A stretch of DNA of 64,000 bases, taken from Rhizophagus irregularis (lineage: Eukaryota). Shown here piece by piece: positions 8,871-63,998 of the stretch. Position 1 is the stretch's first letter. The number at the start of each line of letters is the position of its first letter. The DNA is taken from contig NC_089429.1 in NCBI RefSeq assembly GCF_026210795.1, positions 1,674,001 to 1,738,000 on the forward strand, given 5' to 3'. The translations under genes were made by a program, and so were the position numbers. The notes under the pieces were generated by a model that was not told the origin of the DNA, did not search any database, and saw only the letters and a program-made list of their open reading frames with translations.

Positions 8871-9524
8871 TTGCTCTTTTTTACTCCCTTTCATCTTCTA
8901 TTACTTTCCATTAATCCATTGTTATTTCATTTTTTTATTAGCATCTTTCTCCTGGATCATTATAATTTACTTATCTTTTTATTTATTGTTATTGTTTTTT
9001 TTATTTGTATCACTTCATTAAAAATAAATATGGTGATTTTTTTCTTTAAAATCGTAAATGTGTGACTTAAATTTTAATATTTACAAATAAAATTTCATTA
9101 AATAAGATTATTTTGAATTAAATATGTTTGCAAAAAAAAATTTTTAAAAATATCTTCGCAATAAAATTTTAAGTTTAACCGATCAAAAATTAGCTAAGTT
9201 AAAACAATCAGCCATCGGCCGATTAATAAATTTACTCTATATATTGTGCATCATGTGACAATTGTGACATATTTGAAAAAAACCCAGACGATGATCGCCC
9301 AGGTGATGTTTAGCAATCGGGTGATTTGTCACACGATATCATACGTAATAATTTATAAGAAATTTTTTTGAAACAGTCGATCATGATAATCATGTACAAA
9401 CATGTAAAAATAATCTGTTCCGTGCGACAAACGGTGTTGTCGCTCCGAAATTCCCATAAATTTTTGACGTAGCTTTTTTAATTTCAGAAACCCCTTTTCT
9501 TATTTTCTCCTTTCGACTAAAAAT

Positions 9525-11168
9525 ATGGCATGTTCAAAGTTATTTTTAGGAGATTTACCTGAGTTAGTAAACGAAATTATACAACATTTTCATTATGATT
9601 ACAAAACATTACATTCATGTATATTAGTTAATAAATTATGGTGTCATTTAGCAATCCCATTATTATGGGAAGATCCATTTTCACTTAAATTACCTAAAAA
9701 TTATCACTTTATTGAAATTTACTTATATAAGCTAAACGATGATTACAAAATAAAACTAGATGAATATTTAACTCAAAATGATATATTTCCTTCAAATACG
9801 CTATTTAATTATCCTAGTTTTATTCAACGTTTAGATGCATATGAAATCATTAATTCTATTAATGAGTGGGCTAGGACTATTGAAACTTCAAAAACTAAAG
9901 CGCAACGTTCTGGCTATTTTATGCGAAATAAATTATTACCTTTGCAAATGATAAATTTTACAAAGTTAATATATAAATCATTATTTATAATATTCATTGA
10001 AAATGAAGTAAATTTGCATAGTTTTGAAGTTATGTTGTTTAACAATACAAAATTTGAATATTTTGATGAGATTCTTGAATTAATATTACAAAATCCGAAA
10101 TTCATTTGTAATATTAAAAATTTTGAAATTAATTTTTATGAGGTAACTGAAAATACAAGAATATTTACAAAATTTCTCTACTCTAATTGTAATTCAATTT
10201 CATCACTTTATTTGCAATATTCATTTTATCATTTTCCAGTGACTGAAAAATGTTCATCGTTATCACAAATTATTCAATCTCAAATAAATCTTAGAAAACT
10301 TTTTCTTGGTTGTCAATTTCCTTTGCACCAATCACTATCATCTTTAATTAAAAATCCTAATTGTTCAAATACTTTAAATACAATTATATTTTATTATGTT
10401 GATTTTAAAAATATACTTATTTTGAGTGAAGCATTTAATCACTTGAATGTTTTAGAATCAATTCATATTATTTATTGTCGTTCTTTAGATTCTAGATTTA
10501 TTCAGCAAATTAATAATATCACTAAACCTTTTAAATTAAAATCTTTATTTTTGAATGAAATATTACAAACTGAAGAATTGTTAGTACAAAAATCTTGCGA
10601 TTATTTAGAAAATTTTGGAATTATAGGCAGAGAACCACAACAATTACTACAATTAATTATAAAATATTGTAGCAAAATTAAATATTTGGGTCCTATTTCA
10701 ATGAATAATAAGTGTAGTTATTTATTATTAAATTTAGTTGAAAATATTACACAAAATCTTGATTATCTTTTTATAGAAACTTCCATTAGTGATATTAGTT
10801 CAATTATATTAAAAAATTTAGGTCAAATTCTTCCTCATAAATTAGAATATTTGCATTTGAGTCTTTCAATTGATAGAATTGATTTTGAAATATTTTTAAA
10901 AAATTTTCAAAATACTTTTGTTAAAAAATTGGTAATCAGAAATAGAAGTAAAGGAAAAAATGGTGATATTTTCCCTTCTATAAAAGAATATATTATGAAA
11001 AAGAAAAGAGTCAAATATTTTGCTTTTTCAGAAATTAAATATTCAAGAATTGATGATTTGTTTTTTCTAAAAAATAAGGTAAAGGAATTTGAATTATATG
11101 ATATTCAAGTTTTATGTTATAGGGATTTATCTATTGATATTTATGATTTTATAAAAGAAGTTAATTAG
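9525..11168 (+). CDS. F-box / RNI-like LRR protein (547 aa, intronless)
   Basis: N-terminal F-box-like LPELVNEIIQHF...LHSCILVNKLWCHLAIPLLWEDPF followed by Leu-rich repeats; close paralog of 44800-46434. Confidence 0.85.
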   Translation: MACSKLFLGDLPELVNEIIQHFHYDYKTLHSCILVNKLWCHLAIPLLWEDPFSLKLPKNYHFIEIYLYKLNDDYKIKLDEYLTQNDIFPSNTLFNYPSFIQRLDAYEIINSINEWARTIETSKTKAQRSGYFMRNKLLPLQMINFTKLIYKSLFIIFIENEVNLHSFEVMLFNNTKFEYFDEILELILQNPKFICNIKNFEINFYEVTENTRIFTKFLYSNCNSISSLYLQYSFYHFPVTEKCSSLSQIIQSQINLRKLFLGCQFPLHQSLSSLIKNPNCSNTLNTIIFYYVDFKNILILSEAFNHLNVLESIHIIYCRSLDSRFIQQINNITKPFKLKSLFLNEILQTEELLVQKSCDYLENFGIIGREPQQLLQLIIKYCSKIKYLGPISMNNKCSYLLLNLVENITQNLDYLFIETSISDISSIILKNLGQILPHKLEYLHLSLSIDRIDFEIFLKNFQNTFVKKLVIRNRSKGKNGDIFPSIKEYIMKKKRVKYFAFSEIKYSRIDDLFFLKNKVKEFELYDIQVLCYRDLSIDIYDFIKEVN

Positions 11169-24814: not shown

Positions 24815-27742
24815 TGTTACGCAGTAAAAATGTTGCGCAGCAATCATGTGATATAACTGGACCCGTGATGCCGATCAATGTAGCAAATGTCGAATATGTT
24901 TGACATGTTCGATATGTTGCATATGTCCGATATGTAGAATATATAGAATATATGGAACATGTAGCATATATGGGATATATAGAACATGTAGTATATATGG
25001 AATATATAGAACATATAGGATATATAGGATATATAGCATATGTAGCATATGTTAAACATTTTTAGTTTGGAAATTTATGTATATATAGACCTGTAATTAG
25101 ACCTAAATTCAAAATATAGAACGTGTGTGAAGAATTTAATTAATAAAATGTTTACCCTTTAGTATACACCTTAATTTTAAGTTTGGTTTTATATGGTTAA
25201 TCTGCCTTCCCTTATTTGTGTCTGATTGTATGCGCCAGTGTGAAGCGATACTCTATTCACATCTGATTGGATTGATTTTAACATATACGTTGATCCTTAA
25301 AATTACCTTCTGCTTTATTAAATATAAACATTTTTTAATGTATAGCTTATTTTTAAGCTCATAAGAACTGACTCATAACAATTGGTGCCTTCTGCCAGAA
25401 ACATTCCTTACTCCACCCCAAACTCCTTAATATCGCTAAAACCCCTTTACCCTACCATAAATTTCCTACATCCATTTAAAACTTTATGATTAATGACTTT
25501 TAATGATATTTATTTTCGTGGATTTAATCCATTATTAATGAATTTGCCGATATTAAGATAGAAATAGAACTTTCTTAATAGTTTAGAGCATAAATTTAAC
25601 ATTATCAACATTTATAAACTCTTCACAATGATCTAATGATACACACTTCAAATTCCAAATTTATTATTTCGGATTAATAATAATCTTAAAGAAAAGTGGT
25701 TATTCTTAGTATTCTCTTAGGATATTATATTTCAAAAAGAGAAGGTTCTCCTCATGAATTACCAAATATATGTAATTTCCCATCTAACTTATTGTTTAAT
25801 GCACCTGAGAATTATAAGCAAGAAATTTTACCTTTAGATGCTATAGATATAATGTATACTGGCTATTATAATTTTAAACAAGCATAATGTAATTCAAGTG
25901 GCTTAAAGTTGGATCATACATCAAAATTGCAAAGATTTATCTATTTATACTTTGGAAAGATATCCTTCTTTATAACAACGAGATTGATAATAGTCTTTAA
26001 GTGTTTTATTGATGAATTTGAGAATGTATCGCCCATGATGATGCCATTGCTTTAGAATTTCATTTTTAGAGAATACCAGCAGTTAATTGATATAATGTGT
26101 CTGAGTTTTCCGATCTCATGCTCTATTTTTACTTGAAAATTTGGACAGAAATTGGACAAAGGAAAATATTACTGCTATTACGAACCTTCTTCATAACGAT
26201 AGACCATAATGATTTTCTGATAAAAAGAAAGATACCAAAAATTTGTGTAAATCTTCTATTCCATTTGGCAACAACAATGATTGTGTCTTTGACCTTATTA
26301 CATCAATCATCCATTGGACACCTGTAATTTTATCAGAAATACTTTTACTTTCTCAATCAACACAGGACTTACCCTAAAAGCAAATAGTGTATAAGAGACA
26401 ATGCCATGATACAGTATATTTGTAATATAGTATAGGGAAATTGGAGATTTTATTGCTAGAAATTATTGCAATTTTTCCCACATAGCGTAAAAAAGTAGTG
26501 CACTTAAGATCATGATGTAATGGTATGGCCATCAGTTATTGATTGGGCTAATTGAAGTTACCACTCCATAAAGAAGGTATGATACAATAAAACGAAAAAT
26601 CTTGAGGATGAATTACAGTATGTGGACCACAAGACTTGTTAATTAAATGGATAGAATCAAGTAGACGATTTTAGGATAGATTCGCAACTTTTACTTTCTT
26701 CTCTGGAAATTTCATTTTTACTTTAATCCCATCAGTTCAGAATGCTTGAAACTGTATTACCAATGATCGGATCCATAAATATTCATGTAATGAAAAATAC
26801 TTGTATCAAGACCAACCAGCAGTTATCATACCTTATCCTCCATCATTCAGCAAACACATTGGCCATGAAGAAAAATTTTGTGTGTTAAAGGAAGCAATTG
26901 AATGATCAAAACACTTCGGAAATAAAGTCTTATTGTTAACAAATTTATTCTATATGGGCCAATTTCTAGAAAAAAAATGACTGGTACTTTGCAAAGTCAT
27001 TATGCACAGTAATTATCGATACATTACCTTCAACCATTTGAATATTATATATTGAGCTTCCCGGAGTTGTTCAAATTACCAGGACTACCAACCATGATTC
27101 AGCAATTAAGTCATGAAGAATATCAAAAGTTGGTTAGAAATTTTCAACGGGAGTTGAAAACTTGAGCGGGGAGTGATGTTACGCAGTAAAAATGTTGCGC
27201 AGCAATCATGTGATATAACTGGACCCGTGATGCCGATCAATGTAGCAAATGTCGAATATGTTTGACATGTTCGATATGTTGCATATGTCCGATATGTAGA
27301 ATATATAGAATATATGGAACATGTAGCATATATGGGATATATAGAACATGTAGTATATATGGAATATATAGAACATATAGGATATATAGGATATATAGCA
27401 TATGTAGCATATGTTAAACATTTTTAGTTTGGAAATTTATGTATATATAGACCTGTAATTAGACCTAAATTCAAAATATAGAACGTGTGTGAAGAATTTA
27501 ATTAATAAAATGTTTACCCTTTAGTATACACCTTAATTTTAAGTTTGGTTTTATATGGTTAATCTGCCTTCCCTTATTTGTGTCTGATTGTATGCGCCAG
27601 TGTGAAGCGATACTCTATTCACATCTGATTGGATTGATTTTAACATATACGTTGATCCTTAAAATTACCTTCTGCTTTATTAAATATAAACATTTTTTAA
27701 TGTATAGCTTATTTTTAAGCTCATAAGAACTGACTCATAACA
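24815..27742 (+). mobile_element. Non-autonomous LTR retrotransposon, two 566-bp LTRs (24815-25380, 27177-27742)
   Basis: LTRs look identical, with TGTTA...TAACA termini. 4-bp TSD ATAT at 24811-24814 and 27743-27746. PBS-like TGGTGCC just after the 5' LTR and purine tract GAGCGGGGAGTGA just before the 3' LTR. No gag/pol ORF in the 1.8-kb interior. Confidence 0.93.
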
Positions 27743-27792
27743 ATATTGCATATGATTCTAAGATTCTAAAAATAATAATATTAATAAGTTTT

Positions 27793-44799: not shown

Positions 44800-46434
44800 T
44801 CATTCAATTTCTTTTACATAATTGTTAATATCAATAAACAAATCATAATAATTTAAAACTTGAATATCATATAATTTAAATTCCTCTACTTCATCTTTCT
44901 GAGAGAACAAATCTTCATCCTTTCCAATTAAAGTTTCTAAAATAGCCAAATATTTAACTCTTTTCTCTTTCATAATATATTTTTTTATGTAAGGGACAAT
45001 ACTACTTTTATTTACCCTATTTCTAATTACCAATTTATTTATAAAAGAATTTTGTGAATTTTTTAAAAACATTTCAAGATCATTTGTGTCAAAAATAAGT
45101 TGCAAGTATAGGTATTCTAATTTAAAAGGAAGAATTTGTCCTAAATTTTGTAATATAACAGAACTATTTTCACTATGAAATGATCTTATAAAAAGATAAT
45201 TGAGATTTTGTTTAATATTTTCGATTAAATTTAATCCTAAATTAATATCATTCCGATTATTTATTCCAGCAAATAATTGTAATAACTTAATTTTATTACA
45301 ATATCTTATAGCTAATTCAAATATTTCTTTTAATGATTGTGAATTACCAATGCTACCAAAATTTTCTAAATAATTACCAGATTTTTGTATAAGGAATTTT
45401 AATGATTCAACTTGTAAAATTTCTTTCAAAAATAAAGTTTTTAATTTAAATGGTTTAGTGATATTATTAATTTGTTGAATAAAGTTAGAATCCAGAGAAC
45501 GACATTTAATAATATGAATTGATTCTAAAACATTCAATTGATTGAATACTTCACCTAAAACAGTTATATTTTTAAAATCAATAAAATGAAATATAATTGT
45601 GTTTAATTTATTTGAAAAATTAGGATTTAATAATAAGTGATATGAGAGGGAATAATTACAACTAAATGAAATCTTTTTAAGATTTTCTTGAGAATTAATA
45701 ATTTGTGATAAACATTTTTCGATTGGATAATTAATGTTAAATGATGGAAATAAAAAATAAAGTGATGAAATTGAATTACAATTAGAATGAATACATCCTA
45801 AAATTTTTATTATGTTATCATTCTTAACATAAAAATCCAATCTAAAATTTTTAATATTATAAATGAAATTCGGTTTTTGTAAAATTAATTCAAAAATCTC
45901 ATTAAAATATTTATGTTCTCTATAATAATGTAACGTAATTTCAAAACTATTTAAATTTACTTCATTTTCAATGAATATTAAAAATAATGATTTATAAATT
46001 AATTTTGTAAAGTTTGATTTTTGTGATAATGATAATTTTATATTTTGTATAAAATAATTAGATTTAGTTGAATTTCCGATAGTATCAACCCATTTTACGA
46101 CGGAGGAACAAACTTTAGATGTATTTAAACGTTGAATAAAATTAGAATAATTAAATAACGTATTTGAAGGAAATATATCCTTTTGAGTTAAATATTCTTC
46201 TAGTTTTATTTTGTAATCATCGTTTAGTTTATGTAAGTAAATTTCAATAAAGTGATAATTTTTAGGAAATTTCATTGAAAATGGATCTTCCCATAATAAT
46301 GGGATTGCTATACGACACCATAATCTATTAACTAATATACATGAATGTAATGTTTTATAATCATAATGAAAATATTGTATAGCCTCGTTTACTAACTCAG
46401 GTAAATCTCCTGAAAATAACTTTGAACATGTCAT
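44800..46434 (-). CDS. F-box / RNI-like LRR protein (544 aa, intronless)
   Basis: MTCSKLFSGDLPELVNEAIQYF...LHSCILVNRLWCRIAIPLLWEDPF; paralog of 9525-11168. Confidence 0.87.
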   Translation of the reverse strand: MTCSKLFSGDLPELVNEAIQYFHYDYKTLHSCILVNRLWCRIAIPLLWEDPFSMKFPKNYHFIEIYLHKLNDDYKIKLEEYLTQKDIFPSNTLFNYSNFIQRLNTSKVCSSVVKWVDTIGNSTKSNYFIQNIKLSLSQKSNFTKLIYKSLFLIFIENEVNLNSFEITLHYYREHKYFNEIFELILQKPNFIYNIKNFRLDFYVKNDNIIKILGCIHSNCNSISSLYFLFPSFNINYPIEKCLSQIINSQENLKKISFSCNYSLSYHLLLNPNFSNKLNTIIFHFIDFKNITVLGEVFNQLNVLESIHIIKCRSLDSNFIQQINNITKPFKLKTLFLKEILQVESLKFLIQKSGNYLENFGSIGNSQSLKEIFELAIRYCNKIKLLQLFAGINNRNDINLGLNLIENIKQNLNYLFIRSFHSENSSVILQNLGQILPFKLEYLYLQLIFDTNDLEMFLKNSQNSFINKLVIRNRVNKSSIVPYIKKYIMKEKRVKYLAILETLIGKDEDLFSQKDEVEEFKLYDIQVLNYYDLFIDINNYVKEIE

Positions 46435-49400
46435 GTTGTTAATAAGTACAGAGAAAAGGGGATTCTGAAATTAAAAATATTTATCATGGGAATTTCGCAC
46501 AAGTTATTGTAGATCTAAAAATTTTGTGCGACAAATATCGGCTACCAGAAATGACGTCATTTCTCGAGTCTAGATTACTAGATGTTACACATTTCCTTTT
46601 GGGATAGGCTTAATGCCGACCAGAATTATGTTGTAATTTTAACTTTTCCTATGACCCGGCTCCCGAAAATTAGATGACGTCATTTCTGCCCATCCACTAA
46701 TTTTCCAAAAAGATTTGCACAGTACCACCCGCCGCTTGTCAATAGATAATCGTCATACATATCCGCCGACTTGCAATTTTGTAAATTTATCAGTTTTAAA
46801 TGACATTTCACAACCTGATCAAATCCGTACTAATCATTGATTTTACAATAAATTTCGGTTGAGAGTTAAGTTTTGGGTTTTATTTTTGATCTTTCTTTTT
46901 TTTTTATTGAAACTTTTCTTTTATTAAAGTCAACGCTTTTTTTAATACTAATTTAATTTCTTTTTATATTGGAATGTTTTTACTAATTAATTTTTGTTAA
47001 TTTAGGAAATTGAATAGTGATTTTACAGACTTTTTTTGTATCTGGAGGGAAAGATTTTTATTTTTTTTTTATATTATTAATGTTTGATTTTTTCTTTTTT
47101 CAAGATTACGTAATATTTTTGGTTCTTTTTAGTGAGGTGCTGTAACCATCTAATCTATATATTTTATACTATGTTTATATGCTGATAATTAGTTGATACT
47201 GAATGTTTTAAATTTTTTATTTAATTTTTTTTTAACAAGCGAAGTCTTATGTGAATTTACCTAGTGATTTTCTGCAGATCGACGGATATGATTTCTTCTA
47301 TTTTTTGCATTTCTATTTGTATTAATTTATTAGATTTACAATAATTAAATCAATTGTTATATTTTGTAAAATAAAAAATAATTGAATCCAAAGAACCAAT
47401 TTTTTTATTAAAAAAATCATTTTTAAATCAAACTTCGTTACATTAAGTATTCAGAAATATACCATACAATAATCCAGGTCGGAACCTGGCTAAAACCTAT
47501 AAAAATATTGAAGAAATATTAATAAAATGTTGCAAAAAAAAAAAAAATTTGCAGATTTTGAAGTTAAATATTTGCAATTTTATAATTCCGTAATAGTCCA
47601 CAATTTTGTTAATTGCGATATCACAATTGATACAGTATTGATTCATCGCAAAAATAATCAATTATTTTTTGAATTTTTATTAATACAAGTAAAAAAAAAA
47701 ATTTTCATTAATAAAATTTTTTAAAAGAATAATTTTGTGTTAAAAAAAACGAAATCAGATGGTTAATTTGATTTGTTTTTTAATAAAAATTTTATTTTGA
47801 ATCTTATCAATAAATTTTATTTACTATCAATAAAAAGTAATAAAATTTCTCTAGAATCACTAACTTCGGACTTCGGAGAAGACTTCTTTAGCTTTTTGTC
47901 CGTAACCACGTTCCCCTGGTTTCTTTCTGTGACGACTCTTTCGAAGACCTTTTGCCAGGAGAATTCTTCTCTGGTGTTTGTTGACCATTCTTTGGCTATC
48001 TAGATATTTATCCAAATATGTGAAGGGTTACCAATCATCCTCGTGGGTTTCCAAAGCCTGCAATCTTGAGATGCTACTTATTTTGTTTTTTGATTGTCAT
48101 CGAGATAGTATTCCTCCATTCCGTTAATTTAAACTTTTTTTCGGAATCAAGGATATTGGTATATCGTAAATCATAATGACTCGGATATTCGGCTTTATTT
48201 CTTTCGAGTAATGATGGATTTGCGCATCGTGCTTTTTTGGACGATTTGGTTGGGTGTTGATCATTCTTTTCTTTCCCTACCGTGACTCGGAAATTTCATC
48301 CTCATGACTTTTGATTGGTTCATCTCCTTTTCTAATTCTATTACGTTCGGTAGTAATGTAGTACTCTCCTGTTACGGTTGCTGCGGTGATTGCGTTTCAT
48401 TTTGTTCTTTTCGTCCAAAGAAGAACCTGTAGCGAGGTTAGCTTTATGTGTTCTATATCCTATGCAAGCGCTGTCGCTGGCATAGGCCTCTTTCATTAGC
48501 ACGGCAAGGCAGCGTTTAGAGGGCTAGCTTGTGGTCCAAAGGATTTTACAAGTTCTCTTGGCATCATCTAATAATATTCTATAAAACTCTTTGCATATTC
48601 TTTCATAGATTTTTTTCCTTCCGGACAGTTTGTTCCATGGTTATATGTTGTTTTGGCATTTTTTTAAAAAAAAATAAAAATTTTTTTTTACTGCGGTTTG
48701 TTAATAAATATTAAACAAACAGGAAAGAAATTTTTTTTTATTTCATTTCCTAGTATACAGATATCTGACAAAAACTAGCATTAATTATTATTGAAAGGTG
48801 TCTTACATATTATTTAATATGAGTATAAAAAATCTAACAAAAATAAATTAATCTATTTTATTTTTTAATTATCACTAAATTATAAGGATTGAATGATCTT
48901 TTCTGATTTTTTTTCCTTCCCAATTTAATGGTTTTTAACTTATCTCATTAAATTAAAATTATTATTAATACTACAACAGTGTTACATTTCATCAAATTCG
49001 GATACAATACATATAAATTAAGCTTAATTAACTTTAATATTTTTCTAATTTTTGCCAACCGTAATTATATTAATATTATTTGTTATTTTACTCATTTATG
49101 AAAAATATAATAGCAAGATAAAATAAAACGTCAAAAAAAATTAATTATTGGTTTACTATATTTTTTGGTTAATTTTTGCGTTAAATAACTTGCATATGAG
49201 TGTATATTAAATTATAATTATAAAATTCTAAATTATATATATATATATTTTTTAGACACTTTATAGCGTAAATTTGAATGGTTTAAACATAATTAAGGTT
49301 CGTTGTTTTAAAAAAAGGTTGCACTTTTTTCGTGGTTGCACTACATTAGATGTATCACGGTCATACTTGTCGCTCATATTCCAAAAAGGAAATTACAATA

Positions 49401-49670
49401 ATAAATGATCGGCGAGTACATTGTTACAATTTCCTTTTTTGAAAATGAACGACCAAAACACAATCATGTTTATTATTAATTTTTTTTAAAACAATATGAA
49501 TCTTATTTACTATTATAACAGTTATGTTGCCGATTTATTATATTTTTGGAAAATTAAAACCGGAAACTCCCAGATAAGATCTTTGTGTAAATGATATACA
49601 ATACTTATATATATTCGCATCCCTAAATATTACAAATTATTTTCCACTCATTTATTTTGTATTTTGTAAT

Positions 49671-52600
49671 TAATCAGGATGTAAGTAAATCATTTTTTAA
49701 AATCAAAGTTTCATAATTATTTTGTCATTAGATAACACTTCATTTCCCTAATCAATTACTGATCAATTATAATTCAATTAATCAGGGAGTAAGTAAATTA
49801 TTTTAAAATCAAAGTTTAATAATGATTTTGTCATTAAATAACACATCATTTCTCTAATCATCACAATTCAATTAAATTACCAGTGAGTGAGTATTAACTT
49901 TAATAATAATTTTTAACATTAAAGTTTCTGTCATTAAATAACACATCATTTTTTTAATAAAATCATTGATTAATCATAATTCAATTAAATTACCAGACGG
50001 TAAATGCATCATTTTAAAATCAAAGTTTCATAACAATTTTATCATTAATCATTCTCTAATCAATTGCTGATCAATCACAATTCAATTAAATTACCAGACT
50101 GTGAGTATAAGATTTTGTGATTATTTTTAAAATCAAAGTTTATCATTGAATAACACTTCATTTCTAATCAATCACAAATCAATTAAATTACCAGATGGTA
50201 GGTGCATCATTTATAAAACCAAAGTTTCATAATAATTTTGCCATTGAATAACACTTTATTTCTCTAATAAATTAATCAATCATAATTCAATCATCAGGGA
50301 GTAAGTAAATTATTTTAAAAATTAAAGTTACATAATGATTTTGCAATCCATTTCCCTAATCAATTACTGATCAATCATAATTCAATCATAATTCAATCAT
50401 AATTCAATCATCAGGGAGTAAGTAAATTGTTTTTAAACCAAAGTTTCATAATGATCTTGTCATTAAATAACACTTCATTTCTCTAATCAATTACTGATCA
50501 ATCACAATTCAATTAAATTTACCAGACTGTGAGTATAAAATTTCATGATCGTTTTCAAAATCAAAGTTTTATAATGATTTATCATTGAATAACTCTTCAT
50601 TTCACTAAACAATTATTGATCAATCACAATTCAATCATCAGGGAGTAAGTAAATTATTTATAAAATCAAAGTTACATAATGATTTTGCAATTCATTTCCC
50701 TAATCAATTACTGATCAATCATAATTCAATCATAATTCAATCATCAGGGAGTAAGTAAATTGTTTTTAAACCAAAGTTTCATACCGATTTTGTCATTGAA
50801 TAACACTTCATTTTTCGAATCAATTATTGATCAATTACAATTCAATTAAATTACCAGATCGTGAGTATAAAATTTCATGATTATTTTTAGAATCAAAATT
50901 TCATAATGATTTTGTCATTAATAACATGTAATTTCTCTAATCAATTATTGATCAATCAAATTCAATTAAATTACCAGACTGTGAGTATCAGATTTCATAA
51001 TCATTTTTAAATCAAAGTTTCATAATGATTTTATCATTGAATAACACTACATTTCTCTAATAAATTACTGATCAATCATAATTAAATTAATCAGAAAGTA
51101 AGTAAATTATTTTTAAAATTAAAGCCTCATAATAATTTATCATCAAATAACACATCATTTCTCTAATCAATTGCTGATTAATCACAATTTAATTAAATTA
51201 CCAGAGGGTAAGTGCATCATTTTTAAAATCAAAGGTTTATAAATGATTTTATCATTTTATCATTGAATAATAGTACTTCATTTTTCTAATCAATTACTGA
51301 TCAATCACAATTCAATTAAATCACCAGATTGTAAGTATTGGATTTCATGATCATTTTTTAAAATCAAAGTTTTATAATGATTTTGCCATTAAGTAATATT
51401 TCATACTCTAATCAATTACTGATCAATCACAATTCATTTAATTACCAGACTGTAAGTATAAGATTTCATGATCATTTTAGATCATTTTTAAAAATAAAGT
51501 TTCATAATGATTTTATCATTTAATAACACTTCATTTCTCTAATAAATTATTGACAAATAACAATTCAATTAAATTACCAGGCCGTAAGTATAAGATTTCA
51601 TTATTGTGTTTAAAACAAAGTTTCATAATGGTTTTATCATTGAATAACACTTCTCTTATCAATTGCTGATCAATCACAATTCAATTAAATTACCAGACCG
51701 TGAGTATCAGCATTTTTAAAACAAAAGTTTCATAATGATTTTGCATTGAATACTTCATATTTCTAATCAATTATTAATTAATAACAATTCACAAAATTAC
51801 CAGAACGTAAGTATTTAATATTATGATCATTTTTATAATCAAAGTTTCATAATAATTTTATCATTAAATAACACTTAATTCTTCACAATTCAATTAAATT
51901 ACAGAATGTGGGTATCAGATTTCATGATCAATTTTAAATCAAAGTTTCATAACAATTTTGCCATTAAATAACATTTCATTTCTCTAATCAATTATTGATC
52001 AATCACAATTCATTAAATTACAAGACCGTGAGTATCAAATTTCATGATCACTTTTAAAGTCAAAGTTTTATAATGATTTTATCATTGAATAATACTTCAT
52101 TCCTCTAATTAATTATTGATCAATCACAATTAAATACCAGACCGTGAGTACTAAGATTTCAGGATCATTTTTAAAATCAAATGATTTTATCATCAAATAA
52201 CACTTCATTTCCCTAACTAATTCTTGATCAATCACAATACAATTAAATTACCAGACCGTGAGTGCTAAGATTTCATGATCATTTTTAAAATCAAAGTTCA
52301 TAATAATTTATCATTAAATAACATTTCATTTCTTCAATCAATTACTGATCAATCACAATTCAATTATATTACCAGACCGTAAGTATAAAATTTCATGATA
52401 ATTTTTAAAATCAATGTTTCATTTCATAATGATTTTATCATTGAATAACACTTGATTTCTCTAATCAATTACTGATTAATCACAATTCAATTAAATTGCC
52501 AGACCGTAAGTATAATAATTTTAAAATCAATGTTTCATAATGATTTTATTATCAAATAACACTTCATTTCTCTGATTAATTACTGATAAATCGCAATTCA

Positions 52601-55600
52601 ATTAAATTACCAGACTGTGAGTATAAGATTTCATGATCATTTTTAAAATCAAATGTTCAAAATGATTTTATCATTAAATAATACTTCATTTTTCTAATCA
52701 ATTACTAATCAATCACAATTCATTAAATTACAAGACCGTGAGTATAAGATTTCATAATTATTTTAAAATCAAAGTTTTATAATGATTTGTCATTAAATAA
52801 CACATAATTTCTCCAATCAATTATTAATTGATCACAATTCAATTAAATTCCCAGAGGGTAAGTGTATCATTTTTAAAATCCAAATTTTATAATGAATTGT
52901 TATTAAATAACACATTCTCTAATCAATAATTTAATTAAATTACCAGACGGTAAGTACATAATTTTAAAATCAAAGTTACATAATGATTTTATCATTGAAT
53001 AACACTTCATTTCTCTAATAAATTACTGATTCATTAAATTACCAGACTGTAAGTATAATTATTTTTAAAATCAAAGGTTTAAAATGATTTTATTATTAAA
53101 TAACACTTTATTTCTCTAATAAATTACTGGTTATTTACAACTCAATTAAATTACCAGACCGTAAGTATAAGATTTCATGATCATTTTAAAATCAAAGTTT
53201 CATAATGATTTTATCATTAAATAACACTTCATTTCTATAATCAATTACTGATTAATCACAATTCAATTAAATTACCAGATTGTAAGTATAGGATTTCATG
53301 ATCATTTTTTAAAATCAAAGTTTTATAATGATATTATCATTAAATAAAACATCATTTCTCTAATTAATTATTGATTAATCACAATCCAATTAAATTACCA
53401 GAGGGTAAGTACATCATTTTTAAAATCAAAGTTTTATAATGATTTGCTATTAAATGACACATTATTCTCTAATTAATAATCAATTAAATTACCAGAACGT
53501 AAGTGCATCATTTTTAAATCAAAGGTTTATAATGATTTTATCATTGAATAACACTTCATTTCTCTAATCAATCATTGGTCAATCATAATTCAATTTATCA
53601 GAAAGTAAGTAAATTATTTTTCTTATAATAATTTGTCATTAAATAATATTTCATTTCTCTAATCAATTACTGATTAACCCCAATTCAATTAAATTACCAG
53701 AATGTGGGTATAAGATTTCATGATCATTTTTAAAATCAAAGTTTCATAATAATTTTGCCATTAAATAACACTTCATTTCTCTAATTAATTATTGATCAAT
53801 CACAATTCATTAAATTACAAGACCGTAAGTATCAAATTTAATTATCATTTTTAAAGTCAAGGTTTAATAATGATTTTATCATTAAATAATACTTCACTTC
53901 TCTAATCAATTACTGATCAATCACAATTCAATTAAATTACCAGATCGTGAGTACTAAGATTCATGATTATTTTTAAAATCAAATGATTTTGTCATTAAAC
54001 AACACTTTATTTCTCTAATCAATTATTGATCAATCACAATTCAATTAAATTATCAGACCGTGAGTACTAAGTTTTTATGGTCATTTTAAAATCAAAGTTT
54101 CATAATGATTTTATCATTAAATAACATTTCATTTTTTTAACCAATTACTGATCAACCACAATTCAATTAAATTACCAGACCGTGAGTACATGATTTATAA
54201 TAATTTTTAAAATCAGAGTTTCATAATGATTTTATTATTGAATAATACTTTATTTTTCTAATAAATTACTGATTAATCCCAATTCAATTAAATTACCAGA
54301 CCGTAAGTATAAAATTTCATGATAATTTTTAAAATCAATGTTTCATTTCATAATGATTTTATCATTAAATAACACTTGATTTCCCTGATTAATTATAAAT
54401 TACAATTCAATTAAATTACCAGACTGTGAGTATAAGATTTCATGATCATTTTTAAAATTAAATGTTCAAAATGATTTTGTTATTAAATAATACTTCATTT
54501 CTCTAATCAATTACTAATAAATCACAATTCATTAAATTACCAGACCGTGAGTATAAGATTTCATTATTATTTTGAAATCAAAGTTTTATAATGATTTTGT
54601 CATTAAATAATACTTCATTTTTCTAATCAATTATTGTTTAATCACAATTCAATTAAATTCCCAGAGGGTAAGTGTATCATTTTTAAAATCCGAATTTTAT
54701 AAAGAATTGTTACTAAATAACACATTCTCTAATCAATAATTTAATTAAATTACCAGACGGTAAGTGCCATTTTTAAAATTAAAGTTACATAATGATTTTA
54801 TCATTGAATAACACTTCATTTCTCTAATCAATTACTGATCAATTACAATTCAATTAAATTACCAGACTGTAAGTATAATTATTTTTAAAATCAAAGGTTT
54901 AAAATGACTTTATTAATAAATAATACTTTATTTCTCTAATAAATTACTGGTTAATCACAATTCAATTAAATTACCAGACCGTAAGTATAAGATTTCATGA
55001 TCATTTTAAAATCAAAGTTTCATGATTGTTTTATCATTAAATAACACTTTATATCTCTAATCAATTACTGATCAATCACAATTAAATTAAATTACCAGAA
55101 TGTGAGTATAAGATTTCATGATCATTTTTAAAATCAAAGTTTCATAATGCTTTATCATTGAGTAACACTTCATTTCTCTAATCAATTACTGATCAATCAT
55201 AATTCAATTAATTAGAAAGTAAATAAATTATTTTTAAAATTAAAGTCTCATAATAATTTGTCATTAAAACAACACATAATTTCTCTAATCAATTGCTAAT
55301 TAATCACAATTCAATTAATCAGAAAGTAAGTAAATTATTTTTAAAATTAAAGTCTCATAATAATTTGTCATCATTAAGTAACACATCATTTTTCTAATCA
55401 ATTGCTGATTAATCACAATTCAATTAAATTACCAGAATGTGAGTATAAGATTTCATTATCATTTTTAAAATCAAAGTTCCATAATGATTTTATCATTAAA
55501 TAAACACATCATGGCTCTAATCAATTACTGATCAATCACAATTCATTAAATTATCAAACCGTGAGTATAAAATTTCATGATCATTTTAAAATCAAAGTTT

Positions 55601-57510
55601 TATAATGATTTTGACATTAAATAACACTTTATCTCTCTAATCAATAACTGATCAATCACAATTAAATTAAATTACCAGAATGTGAGTATAAGATTTCATG
55701 ATTATTTTTAAATCAAAGTTTCATAATGATTTTATTATTTAATAACACTTCATTTCCTCTAATCAATAACTGGTCAATCACAATTCAATTAATCAGAAAG
55801 TAAGTGAATTATTTTTTAAAATTAAAGTTCCATAATAATTTGTTATTAAATAATACAACATTTTTCTAAACAATTACATTCAATTAAATTACCAGTGAGT
55901 GAGTATTAACTTTAACAATTATTTTTAAAATTAAAGTTTCTGTCATTAAATAACATTTTTCTAATTAATCACTGATTAATCACAATTCAATTAAATTACC
56001 AGACGGTAAATGCATCATTTTAAAATCAAAGTTTCATAGTGATTTTATCATTTAATAACACATCATTTCTCTAACCAATTACTGGTCAATCACAATTCAA
56101 TTAATCAGAAAGTTAGTAAATTATTTTTTAAAATTGAAGTCTCATAATAATTTGTCATTAAATAATACATCTTTTTTCTAATCATTTACTGATTAACAAT
56201 GATTCAATTAAATTACCAGTGAGTGAGTATTAAACTTTAATAGTAATTTTTTAAAATTAAAGTTTCTGTCATTAAATAACACATCATTTTTCTAATCAAT
56301 CACTGATTAATCATAATTCAATTAAATTACCAGACGGTAAATGCATCATTTTAAAATCAAAGTTTCATAATGATTTTATTATTAAATAACACTTCATTCT
56401 CTAATCAATTGCTGATCAATCACAATTTAATTAAATTACCAGACCGTGAGTATAAGTTTTCATAAGCATTTTTAAAATTATGATTTTGTCATTAAATAAC
56501 CTGATCAAATACTGATCAATTACAATTCCAGTCGGTAAGTATTCATTTTTAAAATTAGAGTTTCAATAATGATTTGTTATTAGATAATTCATCATTTTTC
56601 TAATCAATTGCTGATCAATCACAATTCAATTAAATTACCAGTCGGTAAGTGTTCATTTTTAAAATCAGAGTTTTATAATGATTTATTATTAGATAATTCA
56701 TCATTTCTCTAACAAATTGCTGATCAATCACAATTCAATTAAATTGCCAGTCGGTAAGTATTTATTTTTTAAAATCAAAGTTTCATAATGGTTTGTTATT
56801 AGATAACTGAATTCATTATTTCTCTAACAAATTGCTGATTAATTACAAATTCAATTACATTACCAGTCAGTAAGTATTCATTTTTTAAAATTAAAATTTC
56901 ATAATGATTTGTTATTAGATAATTGAATTCATCATTTTTCTAATCAATTACTGATTGATAATCACAATTTAATAACATTACCAGTGCGTGAGTATAAGAA
57001 GATTTTATGATCATTTTTAAAAATCAAAGTTTCATCATGATATTGTCATTAAATAACACTTCATTTCTCCTGATTAATTACAATTCAATTAAATTATTAG
57101 TATGTAAGTATAGGGTTTCATGATCATTTTCAAAATCAAAGTTTCATAATTATATTTTATCATTAAATAACACTTCATTTCTCTAATCAATTACTAACCA
57201 TTATAATTTAATTAATCAGAAAGTAAGTGAATTATTTTTAAAATTAAAGTCTCATAATAATTTGTCATTAATAATACATCATTTCTCTAATCAATTGCTG
57301 ATCAATCACAATTCAATTAAATTACCAGAGGGTAAGTGCATCATTTTCAAAATAAAGTTTTATGATGATTTGTTATCAAATAACACATTATTCTCTAATC
57401 AATTACTGATCAATTACAATTCAATTAAATTACCAGAGGGTAAGTGCATCACTTTTAAAATCAGAGGTTCAATATGATTTTATCATTAAATAACACTTCA
57501 TTTCTCTAAT
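49671..57510 (+). repeat. Tandem array of 70 units (spacing 89-132 bp), each an intron plus a 3-nt microexon
   Basis: Consensus GTRAGTA...AAAATCAAAGTTTCATAATGATTTTATCATTAAATAACACTTCATTTCTCTAATCAATTACTGATCAATCACAATTCAATTAAATTACCAG|NNN. By my count 70/70 units keep GT and 69/70 keep AG, spaced exactly 3 nt apart. Confidence 0.9.
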
Positions 57511-60428
57511 CAATGGGTAATTTTATAATCTACAATCATCACAAATTAGCATTAGTAATCAAGGAGAACTTCAAAGTTAGTAAATTTGATTATATTAATT
57601 AACTTTTAAATATTAATAATTTATTTTATTAATCTGAAGGAAAATTGGAAGATGAAATAAACAAACTATCAGTACAAAGACAAATTCTGGCAGAAGATTA
57701 TAAAGAGCAAATAAAAGTTCATATTAGAGAAACTGATAAAAAATATCACAATCAAAATGTTCAATTGCAAGAAGAGATTATTAAAAGACAAGAAAAAATT
57801 AAAGAAAAGGAAAATGAAATAGCAACACTTCAGCAAAATTCTCAAAAATTAACCAAAGAAAAAAATGAACTAGAAGATAAATTAAATAAAAAAATAAGTG
57901 AGTTAGAAATTGAATTAACAAAAAAGGAAAAAATTATTGAAGTAGATAAAAAAGTCATTTATAAATATGAATACTCAAACAACTTATTACAAGAACAAAA
58001 GGAAAAATTGGAAAATGAATTAAGCAATTTAAAAGGCCAAAATCAAATTATCAAGGAAGATTTAATTCGAATTCAAGAGCATGTAAAGGTTAATACAGAA
58101 ATCAGCCAAAAACAAAATTCTCAATTACAAGAACAGATAGTTAAAAAACAAGAAATAATTAAACAAAAGGATAATGAAATAACAGCTCTTCAGCAAAGTT
58201 CTCAAAATTTGAACAAAGAAAAAACTGAACTAAAAGAGGAAATAACAGCTCTTCAGCAAAGTTCTCAAAATTTGAACAAAGAAAAAACTGAACTAAAAGA
58301 GGAAATAACAGCTCTTCAGCAAAGTTCTCAAAATTTGAACAAAGAAAAAACTGAACTAAAATTGGAAATAACAGCTCTTCAGCAAAGTTCTCAAAATTTG
58401 AACAAAGATAAAACTGAACTAAAATTGGAAATAACAGCTCTTCAGCAAAGTTCTCAAAATTTGGTTAAAGAAAAAACTGAACTAAAAGTGGAACTAACAG
58501 TAAAGGAAAGAATTATTGAAGTGGCAAATGAAAACTTAAACAACTTACAAGAAGAAAAAGGAAAATTGGAAAATGAAATAAACAAATTAAAGGAGAAAAA
58601 TCAAACTATTGAGAAAGATTTAATCCAAGTTCAAGAGCAAATAAAAGCTAATATAAAAATCAACCAAAAACAAAATGATCAATTACTACAAGAAAAAATT
58701 AAACAAAAAGAAAACGAAATAGCAACACTTCAACAAAATTCTCAAAACATAACTAAAGAAAAAACTAGACTAGAAGAGGAATTGGATAAGAAAATAAGCG
58801 AATTAGAAATTGAATTAGTAAAAAAGGAAAAAATCATTGAAACAGCTAATAAAGAAACTGCCTATTATCATGAAAGATCAAATCACTTACAAGAAGAAAA
58901 AGAAGAATTGGAAGATGAACTAGAGACACTGGAAAAGGAACTAAATCATGAAATAAAAATATTAATCAAAAATAAAGAAGAAAAACAACAAAAAATAAAT
59001 GAATTAGCTGAAGAAATGGAAAAAGAAAGATTGAGGCTAGTAAAAGTAGAAGAGGAATTAATTAAGGCTGATGAAATATTAAAAAATACTCAAATTGAAT
59101 TAGAACTTAGACAAAGTAGTGAAGAGCGGGAATTAATTATTTCTAAGGTTAAAGAATTGAAGAATAATATCAAGCAACTGGAAATTAAAAATGAAGAAAG
59201 TAAACAAAGTTTAGTTAACACACAAAGTAAATTGTCTGAAATTGAAGCCATACCATTTATCACTGATAAAATAAATAAACTTACCAAAAACAAAATTAAG
59301 CAAAAAAAAGAGTTAGAAAAGCTGAAGGAAGAATTGAAAAGTAATCAAGAACAATTAGAAAATATGGAAAAGAAGCTTAATAATAAGTTAAAGGAAATGG
59401 GGCAAATAGGTAAATTTACTATTAATATTAGTAGCAAGAATATAGCTAAACTAGGAGAATTGGTTAAAGAAAAAGAAGAATTAATCGAAAAAATTGACAA
59501 ATTAAAAAAAAATAAACTAGAAAAAGAAGAAAAAATAAAAAAACTTATGGAGAAAATTCAAGATGAAGACTGGAAGAAAAAGTGTCAAGGATTTCAGGAA
59601 ATAATAGACAAGAAAAATCAGATAATAGAAGAATTTACTAAAAAACTACCTAGAAAAATATTACTAATTGGTTGCACAGGTAGTGGTAAATCTACTTTGG
59701 CTAATGTATTGACTAGTACTAACAAATTTAAAGAAAGCAACTATTCTATTAGCCAAACTAAAACAATCCAAAGATGTCAATTTGTTGAAAAGGAGATAAT
59801 CTATGAAGTAATTGATACTATTGGCTTAAATGATACTAAACTAAGTCGGGAAGATATTTTATATAAATTAGCTGAGTTGGCTCGTGAATTAAAGGATGGT
59901 TTGCATCAAATTCTTTTAGTTAATAATGGCCGCTTTACTGAGGAAGAAATCCAAGTTTATAAAATACTAGAAACTGTTCTTTTTGATGAAAATGTGAAAA
60001 ACTATACCACAATTGTACGAACTAACTTTGAGAAGTTTGAAGATGAGGAAGAATGCCAAAACAATCAAAGATTATTAATTGAAGAAAAATCTCGAATAAT
60101 GGCCATAATTAAAAACTGTAATTTTTTTATTCATTTAGATAATCCTTCAAATGATATTAGTAAAAGAAAAAAGTCAAAAGCTATCCTATTAAACCATTTG
60201 AATAAGCAGATAGGAGTTTACAGGCCAAGTAACTTGGAAAAATTAAATGAAAGAATTATGGATTATATGAAAAATGAGAACCGAGAACTAGTTATTCAGG
60301 AAATGGATAAGCATGTTTCGAAATTTGAAGATAAATTATCTAATTTAGGACAAATTGGCTCATTTATTTCTGGATTAGCAGCAGTAGCAGCTATTATTGT
60401 TCCATTGGTTTCTTGTAATATAATGTAG
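49679..60428 (+). CDS. Predicted ~1006-aa protein: microexon-encoded Pro-rich N-terminus + long coiled coil + AIG1/GIMAP GTPase + C-terminal hydrophobic segment and CaaX
   Basis: ATG formed as AT(49679-49680)|G(49786); 3-nt exons up to 57437-57439; 26-nt exon 57550-57575; terminal exon 57640-60428. All junctions are in frame, with no stop. Confidence 0.72.
57640..60428 (+). CDS. Terminal exon: coiled coil + AIG1/GIMAP-family GTPase domain (~59650-60230)
   Basis: ILLIGCTGSGKSTLANVL (P-loop), SQTK (G2), VIDTIG (G3), GRFTEEE (AIG1 conserved box); ends GLAAVAAIIVPLVSCNIM*. The track ORF begins at TTG with an in-frame TAA at 57630-57632, so upstream exons are needed. Confidence 0.92.
58176..58490 (+). 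repeat. Coding 63-bp tandem repeat x5 (EITALQQSSQNLNKEKTELK[E/L/V])
   Basis: Five nearly identical 21-aa (3-heptad) copies within the coiled coil. Confidence 0.95.
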
Positions 60429-63228: not shown

Positions 63229-63998
63229 TAGAGGTTTGGACCGGTTAAGCTTAACCGGTTAATTAACCGGTTAAAACATTTGTTAACTGGTTACAGCAAA
63301 TTTCAAAATATACGGGACACTTGAGAAATTTGATTGTCGGGTTGTCGGGTAGCCGGGTTACTCGGCAGTAGGTTGTTTATTAGAAAAGTATAAATAACAC
63401 GTGACGAGTATAATGAATAGTAGTATATCAGATTATATAATAACCTACTGCCGGCTACCCGACAACCCGACAATCAAATTTCTCAAGTGTCCCGTATATT
63501 TTGAAATTTGCTGTAAAAAACAATTTTTAACCGGTTAAATTATCCGGTTAAATTATCCGGTTAAATTAATCGGTTAAATTAATCGGTTAAATTAACTGGT
63601 TAAAATACTGAAAAATATTTGTAATTCTGGCCAAATTTACAGTGCCGGCCAGAATTATAAATCACGGGACTTCAGATAAAAGTTTAGCCACCAGGTTAGA
63701 TACTAACGACGAGGTGGTGGAATTTTTGTGTTATATAAAATTCATAATGCGGGCCAAAATTCATAGTGCCGGCCAGACAATTTGGCCTGAATTTCGTCTT
63801 TCAGCTAAAGTTTCGTTTCGATTAGTTAGAGTTTTGATCTGGCCTAATTTTGGCCGGGATTAAAAATATATTTGATGCTAATCCTGGCCGAATTTTAATG
63901 CTGGCTAGGATTGAGTTTTAACCGGTTAATTAACCGGTTAAAGGTTTGGTTAACCGGTTATTAACCGTTAAGACTTTTTGGACCGGTTCCAACCTCTA
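63229..63998. mobile_element. hAT-type non-autonomous element with AACCGGTT subterminal repeats
   Basis: TIRs TAGAGGTTTGGACCGGT / ACCGGTTCCAACCTCTA. Left flank is GCATAAAA and the right flank begins GC at the window end, consistent with an 8-bp TSD. Confidence 0.8.
63294..63513. mobile_element. Nested TA-flanked foldback MITE with ~70-80-bp TIRs
   Basis: CAGCAAATTTCAAAATATACGGGACACTTGAGAAATTTGATTGTCGGGTTGTCGGGTAGCCGG is matched by its reverse complement ending at 63513; TA on both sides. Confidence 0.85.

What the first reader, a model, noticed from the sequence alone, without database searches (positions are those of the whole stretch)
49671..60428. ~70 consecutive 3-nt microexons hidden in an apparent satellite encode the N-terminus of an AIG1/GIMAP GTPase
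SEEN: the 7.8-kb repeat has 70 units. Each has a donor (mostly GTAAGT/GTGAGT; also GTAAAT x4, GTGGGT x2, GTAGGT, GTTAGT), branch-point-like CTAAT/CTGAT motifs and an acceptor (mostly CAG; AAG x3, TAG x2). Exactly 3 variable nt lie between AG and GT, while the rest of the unit takes indels (spacing 89-132 bp). Triplets in order: GAT GGA TGA ACG ACT ATG GGA GGA ACT GGA GGA ATC ACT AAA AGG ATT ACT GCC ACC AAC AAT ACC ACC ACC ACC ACC ACT ACC AGG ACG ACT ACC ATT AGG AAC AAA AAT ACC ATC ACC ACC ACC ACT ACC AGG ACG ACT ACC AAT AAA AAA AAT (ACC) AAT AAA TGA ACG AAA TGA ACG ACC TCG TCG TCG TCA TGC TAT AAA AGG AGG. Joined, two frames contain stops (TGA at units 3/56/59; TAA at 13/14). The third starts with an ATG built across the first junction (AT|G) and stays open: MDERLWEELEESLKGLLPPTIPPPPPLPGRLPLGTKIPSPPPLPGRLPIKKI(P)INERNERPRRRHAIKGG. 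That frame continues through exon 57550-57575 (ISNQGELQ) into the acceptor at 57639 (R-KLEDEINK...), supplying the start codon the AIG1 ORF lacks. KNOWN: isolated 3-nt exons exist, and AIG1/GIMAP GTPases are immunity-associated in plants and animals. INFERENCE: this is a real ~72-exon gene. I know of no described gene with such a long run of 3-nt exons, and gene finders and repeat maskers would miss it.
Basis: partly seen in the sequence, partly recalled or inferred. Interest (0 to 1): 0.97.

Follow-up and report, generated by a model that had tools for sequence, protein, structure and literature searches.

The report
Gene spelled in 69 three-base exons
What looks like a 7.8-kb satellite in the mycorrhizal fungus Rhizophagus irregularis is the front of an immune-type GTPase gene written as 69 three-base exons, the last ten of which are seen joined in RNA, and the same repeated intron builds such arrays in unrelated kinase genes, where recombination likely reshuffles single amino acids.

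Summary
Confirmed, with RNA support. The array has 70 units (introns 86-129 nt, three variable bases between AG and GT). In poly(A) reads (4 reads) and an RNA contig of a second study, units 61-70 (62-70 in the contig) are joined and spliced onto the 26-nt exon and the AIG1 exon. One contig is a half-spliced molecule: upstream triplets joined, next intron retained. Corrections: unit 1 ends a longer 5' exon, so there are 69 microexons; unit 53 lacks AG; the open frame alone is weak evidence (P 0.10-0.24); most middle exons are inferred. The same intron family forms arrays in 13 of 14 metagenome contigs, beside TPR and kinase exons; one has 82 units, open in the same phase (P 0.0015). Each triplet is linked to the start of its downstream intron, suggesting cassette shuffling. 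The architecture is not unprecedented: tens of codon-sized exons are reported in truffle NACHT-ankyrin genes, and this scan noted similar arrays in other genomes, mostly without RNA support. New: lineage, host genes, length, a shared intron across gene families, spliced reads.

The parts
49564..49680 (+). 5' exon (at least 117 nt): 5' UTR plus the first two bases of the start codon; holds a short upstream ORF (ATG at 49591)
   Evidence: X3 contig (277 nt, depth 19.2) matches 49564-49681 with no difference, then leaves the stretch for 159 letters that the tool did not print; ATG positions
49681..57549 (+). Tandem array of 70 homologous introns (86-129 nt between microexons; last one 110 nt) separated by 69 three-base exons (units 2-70), all phase 2
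   Evidence: mean pairwise intron identity 83%
49786..56336 (+). Microexons 2-60: inclusion inferred (only the last base of unit 60 seen in RNA)
   Evidence: splice signals, open frame, start codon completed by unit 2; length of the unprinted tail of the X3 contig is compatible
55558..55560 (+). Unit 53: acceptor reads CAA, so probably skipped in frame, or an assembly error
56443..57439 (+). Microexons 61-70: seen joined in RNA
   Evidence: loose ends before 57549 in X24 (4 reads, agreement 1) and X1 (contig) equal the joined triplets
56988..57100 (+). Intron after unit 66, retained in a half-spliced contig whose upstream triplets (end of 64, 65, 66) are already joined
   Evidence: X1 record 3; intron identified by a 22-mer unique in the window and five diagnostic differences
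57550..57575 (+). 26-nt exon
   Evidence: RNA joints on both sides
57576..57639 (+). 64-nt GT-AG intron
   Evidence: joint 57575-57640 in X23 (3 reads), X24 (4 reads), X1 (contig)
57640..60428 (+). Large last exon: long charged coiled-coil-like region with a 63-nt repeat (58176-58500), AIG1 GTPase domain (about 59655-60206), hydrophobic tail ending in a CaaX-like tetrapeptide (motif recalled)
   Evidence: (PF04548 63.9 bits, cut-off 27)

Best explanation
The repeat is the spliced 5' part of an AIG1/GIMAP-family GTPase gene: its last ten three-base exons are joined in mRNA, the other 59 are likely joined the same way, and the array likely diversifies by recombination between its look-alike introns, which would add, drop or swap one amino acid at a time. 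How it works: (1, shown for units 60/61-70) each roughly 110-nt unit is a normal short GT-AG intron and three bases are kept per unit. (2, one contig) introns are removed roughly 5' to 3', so each donor is probably read with an already long spliced exon in front of it, which would solve the problem of recognising a 3-nt exon. (3, shown in sequence) all introns are phase 2, so an exon's last two bases set the amino acid class and the next exon's first base is the wobble base; gain, loss or skipping of a unit keeps the frame. (4, inferred) the heritable unit is a triplet plus the first 25-30 nt of its downstream intron; crossovers or conversion in the conserved intron body reorder these cassettes. 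(5, inferred) the AIG1 gene and TPR-kinase genes share the array by descent of one intron family; here it supplies the start codon and a 70-residue acidic/proline-rich/basic leader, probably a fast-evolving binding segment. Splicing of the whole array: about 0.9. DNA-level shuffling as the main source of variation: about 0.65.
For: RNA loose ends equal the joined triplets in two studies; no 16-mer of that 3' part of the joined string exists in the window (only 2 of 195 16-mers, from the AT-rich middle, do). Half-spliced contig. 5' exon leaves the genome at the first donor. 1007-residue frame. Donor compensation: a full 8-of-8 intronic match to the U1-complement consensus (recalled) in 2 of 15 exons ending in G against 33 of 54 others (p=0.0012); L020 0 of 25 against 35 of 57. 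Independent arrays: L020 has 82 units open in phase 2 (order shuffle P=0.0015; all 8 xTG exons avoid a following A, which begins 52% of exons); upstream donors are phase 2 in 4 of 4 loci and the best downstream frame is phase 2 in 7 of 9. Window and L020 introns are 80% identical, as alike as within each array (83%, 81%). Triplets are linked to the next 25-30 intron bases; in L020 not to the upstream intron or the neighbouring exon (p=0.64). Among nearest-neighbour units, flanks differ at 8% and exon positions at 19/38/36% (53 pairs, window). L009 lacks two whole exons against the 99.9% identical L002.
Against: Units 2-59 were never read in RNA; the 159-letter tail of the X3 contig was not printed. 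Read numbers are small (4 and 3 reads). Order of splicing rests on one contig at depth 7.7. Unspliced copies of the last introns are also present in X1. The frame test is not significant for the window (P=0.24, 0.10) or for L002 by order shuffle (P=0.38), and L002 shows no donor compensation (5 of 5 against 14 of 16). Units share ancestry, so the p-values are too small. In the window the triplet is also linked to the upstream intron end and the next exon (p=0.0005), which points to recent block duplication rather than free shuffling. The nearest-neighbour test is biased because pairs were chosen for similar flanks. L009 also lacks about 150 nt of its kinase, so its deletions may be assembly artefacts. 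L003 and L001 have stops in the kinase. No function of the leader was tested.
Confidence: 0.62

Rival explanations
1. Spliced, but a neutral by-product: an intron-plus-codon unit was amplified by unequal crossing-over, is tolerated because it keeps the frame, and the peptide is only a flexible spacer under weak selection against stops.
For: Low-complexity products (proline-rich here, charged in L020); 7.8 kb for 69 residues; one unit with a broken acceptor; block duplication visible in the triplet order; stops in the kinases of L001 and L003.
Against: The two amino-acid-determining exon positions differ about twice as often as the wobble position among close units in the window, though splice-site preference at the first base could explain that; arrays persist at 72-83% intron identity in at least two gene families, and the host genes are of receptor/immunity type.
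Confidence: 0.2
2. A splice-level diversity generator as reported for truffle nank genes: each transcript includes a different subset of the codon exons, giving many protein variants from one gene.
For: Every skip is frame-neutral; precedent in Tuber (PMC4986451, PMC3689799, PMC13449251, passages); unit 53 would have to be skipped; RNA contigs break into short pieces here (83 and 277 nt), as branching isoforms or retained introns would cause.
Against: All 4 X24 reads agree (agreement 1) over the 30 printed letters and match the X1 contig, with no skip among units 61-70. Some skips would make stops (an xTG exon brought before an A). The sample is small and the tool prints only a consensus.
Confidence: 0.13
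3. Only the ends of the array are used: the 5' exon splices to the last dozen or so units, and the middle is satellite-like dead copies.
For: No RNA letters seen for units 2-59; open frame not significant in the window.
Against: 68 of 69 microexons keep AG and all keep GT; donor compensation holds along the array; X24 loose ends have a median length of 47 letters (about 15 exons) and the X3 contig runs 159 letters past the first donor; the base after the 5' exon in that contig is G, as unit 2 requires (it also equals the first intron base).
Confidence: 0.05

Closest known systems
Codon-sized microexons of Tuber melanosporum nank (NACHT-ankyrin) genes (Iotti et al. 2012, PMID 22289772; paper not held, known only through passages of PMC4986451, PMC3689799, PMC13449251)
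   Same: Tens of codon-sized exons in a fungal gene of likely non-self recognition; mycorrhizal fungus; frame-neutral units.
   Different: Different phylum-level lineage and host gene (AIG1 GTPase; TPR-kinase in related loci; no NACHT or ankyrin hit). The truffle genes are described as extensively alternatively spliced; no skipping was seen here in the few molecules read. Whether the truffle introns are homologous tandem copies, their phase and their number could not be checked.
Schistosoma micro-exon genes (MEG; PMC10526429, abstract and passages)
   Same: Coding sequence made of many very short exons, hard to annotate.
   Different: MEGs have 10-20 exons of 3-81 bp, introns of 100 to almost 5000 bp, and encode secreted proteins. 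Here 69 exons are all 3 nt, introns are 86-129-nt paralogues, and the array is one part of a large GTPase gene.
Exon shuffling in brown-algal ROCO and NB-ARC-TPR candidate immune receptors (passage in PMC13449251)
   Same: Repeated exon-intron units exchanged within and between paralogues to vary a receptor-type protein.
   Different: There each exon encodes a whole LRR or TPR repeat; here the unit is one codon.
AIG1/GIMAP GTPases (PF04548; human GIMAP7 structure 3zjc)
   Same: G domain with P-loop, DxxG and the conserved-box arginine aligned to GIMAP7 (E=1.2e-9); hydrophobic C-terminal tail.
   Different: About 670 residues of charged coiled-coil-like sequence and a microexon-coded leader precede the domain; nearest relatives outside Rhizophagus are proteins of Mollicutes-related endobacteria and other Glomeromycotina assemblies at 37-47% identity.
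Introner elements (recalled)
   Same: Families of near-identical introns in unrelated genes.
   Different: Copies here are head to tail with 3 nt between them; no dispersed copy in the rest of the window (70 profile hits, all inside the array).

Membership tests
Codon-sized microexon arrays (Tuber nank type) | Tens of consecutive codon-sized exons that are spliced | tested here: met
   69 units in DNA; 10 consecutive ones joined in RNA
Codon-sized microexon arrays (Tuber nank type) | Extensive alternative splicing of the microexons | tested here: inconclusive
   No skip in 4 reads and 1 contig over units 61-70; consensus only, low depth
Codon-sized microexon arrays (Tuber nank type) | Host gene is a NACHT-ankyrin NLR | tested here: not met
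   Pfam gives AIG1 and MMR_HSR1 above cut-off, no NACHT or ankyrin; so it works like, but is not, a nank gene
Codon-sized microexon arrays (Tuber nank type) | Homology of introns or phase with the truffle arrays | not testable with these tools
   Primary paper not held; no truffle locus fetched
Schistosoma MEG | 10-20 exons of varied short length with introns of 100 to 5000 bp | tested here: not met
   69 exons of exactly 3 nt, introns 86-129 nt against PMC10526429
Schistosoma MEG | Secreted product | not tested
   No signal-peptide predictor run; the predicted N-terminus is acidic and proline-rich by inspection
AIG1/GIMAP GTPase | AIG1 domain above the Pfam cut-off | tested here: met
   63.9 bits against 27
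AIG1/GIMAP GTPase | G1, G3, conserved-box arginine and G4-like motifs in place (motif names recalled) | tested here: met
   Alignment to GIMAP7
AIG1/GIMAP GTPase | GTP hydrolysis, role in immunity | not testable with these tools
   No assay
Introner elements | Near-identical introns inserted singly at dispersed sites | tested here: not met
   0 copies outside the array in the window; in the 13 positive contigs copies are in tandem. Whole genome not held, so dispersed copies elsewhere are untested
Non-coding satellite DNA | Not spliced into a coding transcript | tested here: not met
   Spliced RNA

The most novel reading that the evidence does not exclude
Arbuscular mycorrhizal fungi carry a portable 'codon cassette' module: one intron family, shared by AIG1 GTPase and TPR-kinase genes, that stores a peptide as 20-80 single-codon exons and rewrites it by recombination through the identical intron bodies, giving heritable, always in-frame, residue-by-residue variation in non-self-recognition proteins, invisible to present annotations.
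Probability: 0.4. Interest if true: 0.9.

Novelty: new variant of a known kind. Interest (0 to 1): 0.78.

Why it matters
It shows with reads that a spliceosome can join at least ten consecutive 3-nt exons, and probably about seventy, in a model symbiotic fungus with public long-read RNA and many strain genomes, so the questions of how tiny exons are recognised, whether they are skipped, and whether arrays differ between strains or nuclei become directly testable. It implies that repeats masked as satellites in these genomes hide coding sequence and that 'separate' SPRY-TPR and kinase models may be halves of one gene (the Glomus cerebriforme model P0087 stops where the array would begin). If the arrays are recombination-driven, they are a candidate source of fast variation in recognition proteins of fungi with no observed sexual cycle (recalled).

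Tried and rejected
No whole genome is held, so no genome-wide count. The run search listed no holder on record as RNA; RNA evidence came from laying. X9 covered only 57675-57972 and X23 showed the 64-nt joint but no listed loose end. The 5' lay gave no transcript start, and 19 loose ends and 8 pieces were not shown; most reads on 46700-49500 were short matches from other loci. A possible extra intron 49587-49677 was not spliced in the one covering contig. Searches for a public protein that already holds array-coded residues failed: 81 hits; the 6 close relatives have other N-termini; cluster members; 1 hit, P0087, ends at the array; 1 hit, no leader; swamped by general TPR proteins; three close hits read, all end at the TPR exon. 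A tree of 60 AIG1 domains (quick method only; careful search unfinished; 46 of the 81 hits supplied, most fish rows left out) leaves the window's clade on an open fork with endobacterial proteins, so no direction of transfer can be claimed. L005 was a chance match (0 profile hits). The putative SPRY exon of L020 scored no Pfam family on its own. No structure or complex was predicted, so the fold of the leader is open. Literature searches without a report of this in Glomeromycotina: AIG1+microexon, GIMAP/fungi/exon/Glomeromycot, microexon+Rhizophagus, 3-nt-exon phrases, AIG1+mycorrhizal+Mollicutes, codon-sized+microexons, Tuber/NACHT terms, AIG1+endobacteria, mycorrhizal+short-exon phrases; term look-ups in PMC10234402 (long-read annotation; AIG1 0 hits, no microexon passage among those shown; supplements not opened and may bear on this) and PMC10507103 (AIG1 0 hits). 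Most subscription papers are outside the library.
Full report
Observation. The repeat is as described. Sixty-nine units match AG-NNN-GT between 49676 and 57439, and the single double-length gap holds a seventieth unit whose acceptor is CAA. Introns are 86-129 nt, 21% GC against 45% in the triplets, and 83% identical on average. A resample of the array gives 0.48 such matches, the remaining 56 kb give 10 on both strands. The triplet is among the most variable parts of the unit (majority base 76, 49 and 30%), between an almost invariant AG and GT. Joined, the three frames carry 3, 0 and 6 stops, but that alone is weak: the phase-2 frame stays open in 24% of order shuffles and 10% of column shuffles.

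Host gene. The downstream ORF is 98-99% identical in its last 330 residues to Rhizophagus irregularis proteins, has an AIG1 domain above the Pfam cut-off and aligns with GIMAP7. Flanking genes (kinases, a BTB-SPRY protein) fit that fungus. No public model found has the array-coded leader: P0001-P0003 start otherwise, and P0085 uses the 26-nt exon but begins with residues that read, by eye, as array-intron sequence.

RNA. Four runs were laid on 57445-58170. The 64-nt intron 57576-57639 is removed in X23 (3 reads), X24 (4 reads) and an X1 contig. In front of the 26-nt exon, X24's 4 reads carry loose letters (median 47, 30 printed, agreement 1) equal to the last base of unit 60 and units 61-70 joined; the X1 contig (another study, depth 33.8) carries units 62-70. 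That string is not contiguous in the window. X9 did not cover the place; X23 gave no listed loose end. On 46700-49790 an X3 contig matches 49564-49681 without a difference and then leaves the genome for 159 letters that were not printed. So the first triplet ends a 5' exon of at least 117 nt, and the start codon is split across the first intron; its context has A at -3 and G at +4. An X1 contig (depth 7.7) shows the end of unit 64, units 65 and 66 joined, followed by the intron after unit 66, identified by a unique 22-mer and five diagnostic bases: a half-spliced molecule with upstream introns out first. X1 also holds unspliced copies of the last introns. X1 and X3 are labelled RNA by guess; their splice joints bear that out. 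The model (5' exon, 69 microexons, 26-nt exon, last exon) gives 1007 residues and one terminal stop. Units 2-59 are inferred.

Other loci. A 24-letter junction pattern found 21 loci, 14 distinct contigs, in metagenomes. Thirteen carry the same intron family; L005 does not (the profile was built from the window, L020 and L002, and all loci were picked by the pattern). L020 holds 82 units between a TPR exon and a kinase (Pfam); the joined exons are open in phase 2 (order shuffle P=0.0015, column shuffle 0 of 20000), all 8 xTG exons avoid a following A, and the product is a charged, helix-like linker unlike the window's peptide. L002 and L009 have 21 and 16 visible units before a kinase. Upstream donors are phase 2 in 4 of 4 loci; the best downstream frame is phase 2 in 7 of 9, with L003 broken by a stop and L007 ambiguous; L011 runs into another repeat. 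The best named relative of the TPR exon is a Glomus cerebriforme SPRY protein (55%) that ends where the array would start; the organisms of these contigs are inferred from that, not established. Window and L020 introns are 80% identical, window and L002 74%.

Mechanism. Exons ending in G have weaker intronic donors than the others in the window (2 of 15 against 33 of 54 full matches) and L020 (0 of 25 against 35 of 57), not in L002; this is the compensation expected of working U1 sites (recalled), with the caveat that units are related. Triplet identity shares 0.4-0.75 bits with columns in the first 25-30 nt of the downstream intron and little beyond; in L020 it shares none with the upstream intron or the next exon, whereas in the window some linkage remains on both sides, in line with a recent block duplication that doubled a proline-rich tract (triplet order). 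Close units differ more in the triplet than in flanks (biased test). L009 lacks 177 nt with two exons relative to the 99.9% identical L002, but also about 150 nt of kinase, so artefact is possible. I read this as: ordinary short introns removed in order, each new donor seen behind an already long exon; cassettes of triplet plus donor flank reshuffled through the conserved intron body; frame always kept. A functional coupling between triplet and donor flank would also give the linkage and is not excluded.

Comparison. Schistosome MEGs differ in exon and intron sizes. Ten searches found no report in Glomeromycotina (listed under Tried and rejected). Earlier notes of this scan describe similar arrays in protists and in fungal HET genes, several saying that RNA support was lacking; none was on this genome or matched this DNA.

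Verdict. Real, spliced where it could be read, and part of a multi-gene family. A new variant of a rare known kind. Interest 0.78.

Noticed in passing
window 60360-60428: The AIG1 protein ends in a hydrophobic stretch and a CaaX-like tetrapeptide (motif recalled), suggesting membrane anchoring; close paralogues end likewise.
   Followed up: no
window 52025-53160 and 53822-54980 (units 22-32, 38-48): Two near-copies of a proline tract ending in LPG in the predicted leader, resembling formin FH1 profilin-binding tracts (recalled).
   Followed up: no
window 57640-60428: A 2.8-kb intron-free exon whose nearest non-Rhizophagus relatives include AIG1 proteins of Mollicutes-related endobacteria (42-47%); the quick tree did not resolve direction of transfer.
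   Followed up: partly
window 49591-49626: Short upstream ORF in the 5' exon, inside a stretch (49587-49677) that looks like an intron but was unspliced in the one covering contig.
   Followed up: partly
L002 (reverse strand) near 2380-2391 and 2715-2725; same in L009: Possible 9-nt and 6-nt exons within an otherwise 3-nt array; both would keep the frame.
   Followed up: no
L020 (reverse strand) gaps 8263-8473 and 9336-9551, and unit at 13239: Two units with weak donors and one GC donor after a G-ending exon.
   Followed up: partly
window 24815-25382 and 27177-27744: A 568-nt segment duplicated at 100% identity, holding a 9/27-nt tandem repeat.
   Followed up: no
window 9475-11165 (+) and 44802-46477 (-): Two paralogous 556-566-residue ORFs, 79% identical in DNA, F-box-like by eye, no Pfam hit.
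   Followed up: no
window 63240-63561: Imperfect palindrome (78% over 335 nt) with short tandem repeats near the window end.
   Followed up: no
window 58176-58500: 63-nt coding repeat (5.2 copies); copy number differs among strain proteins P0001-P0003.
   Followed up: no
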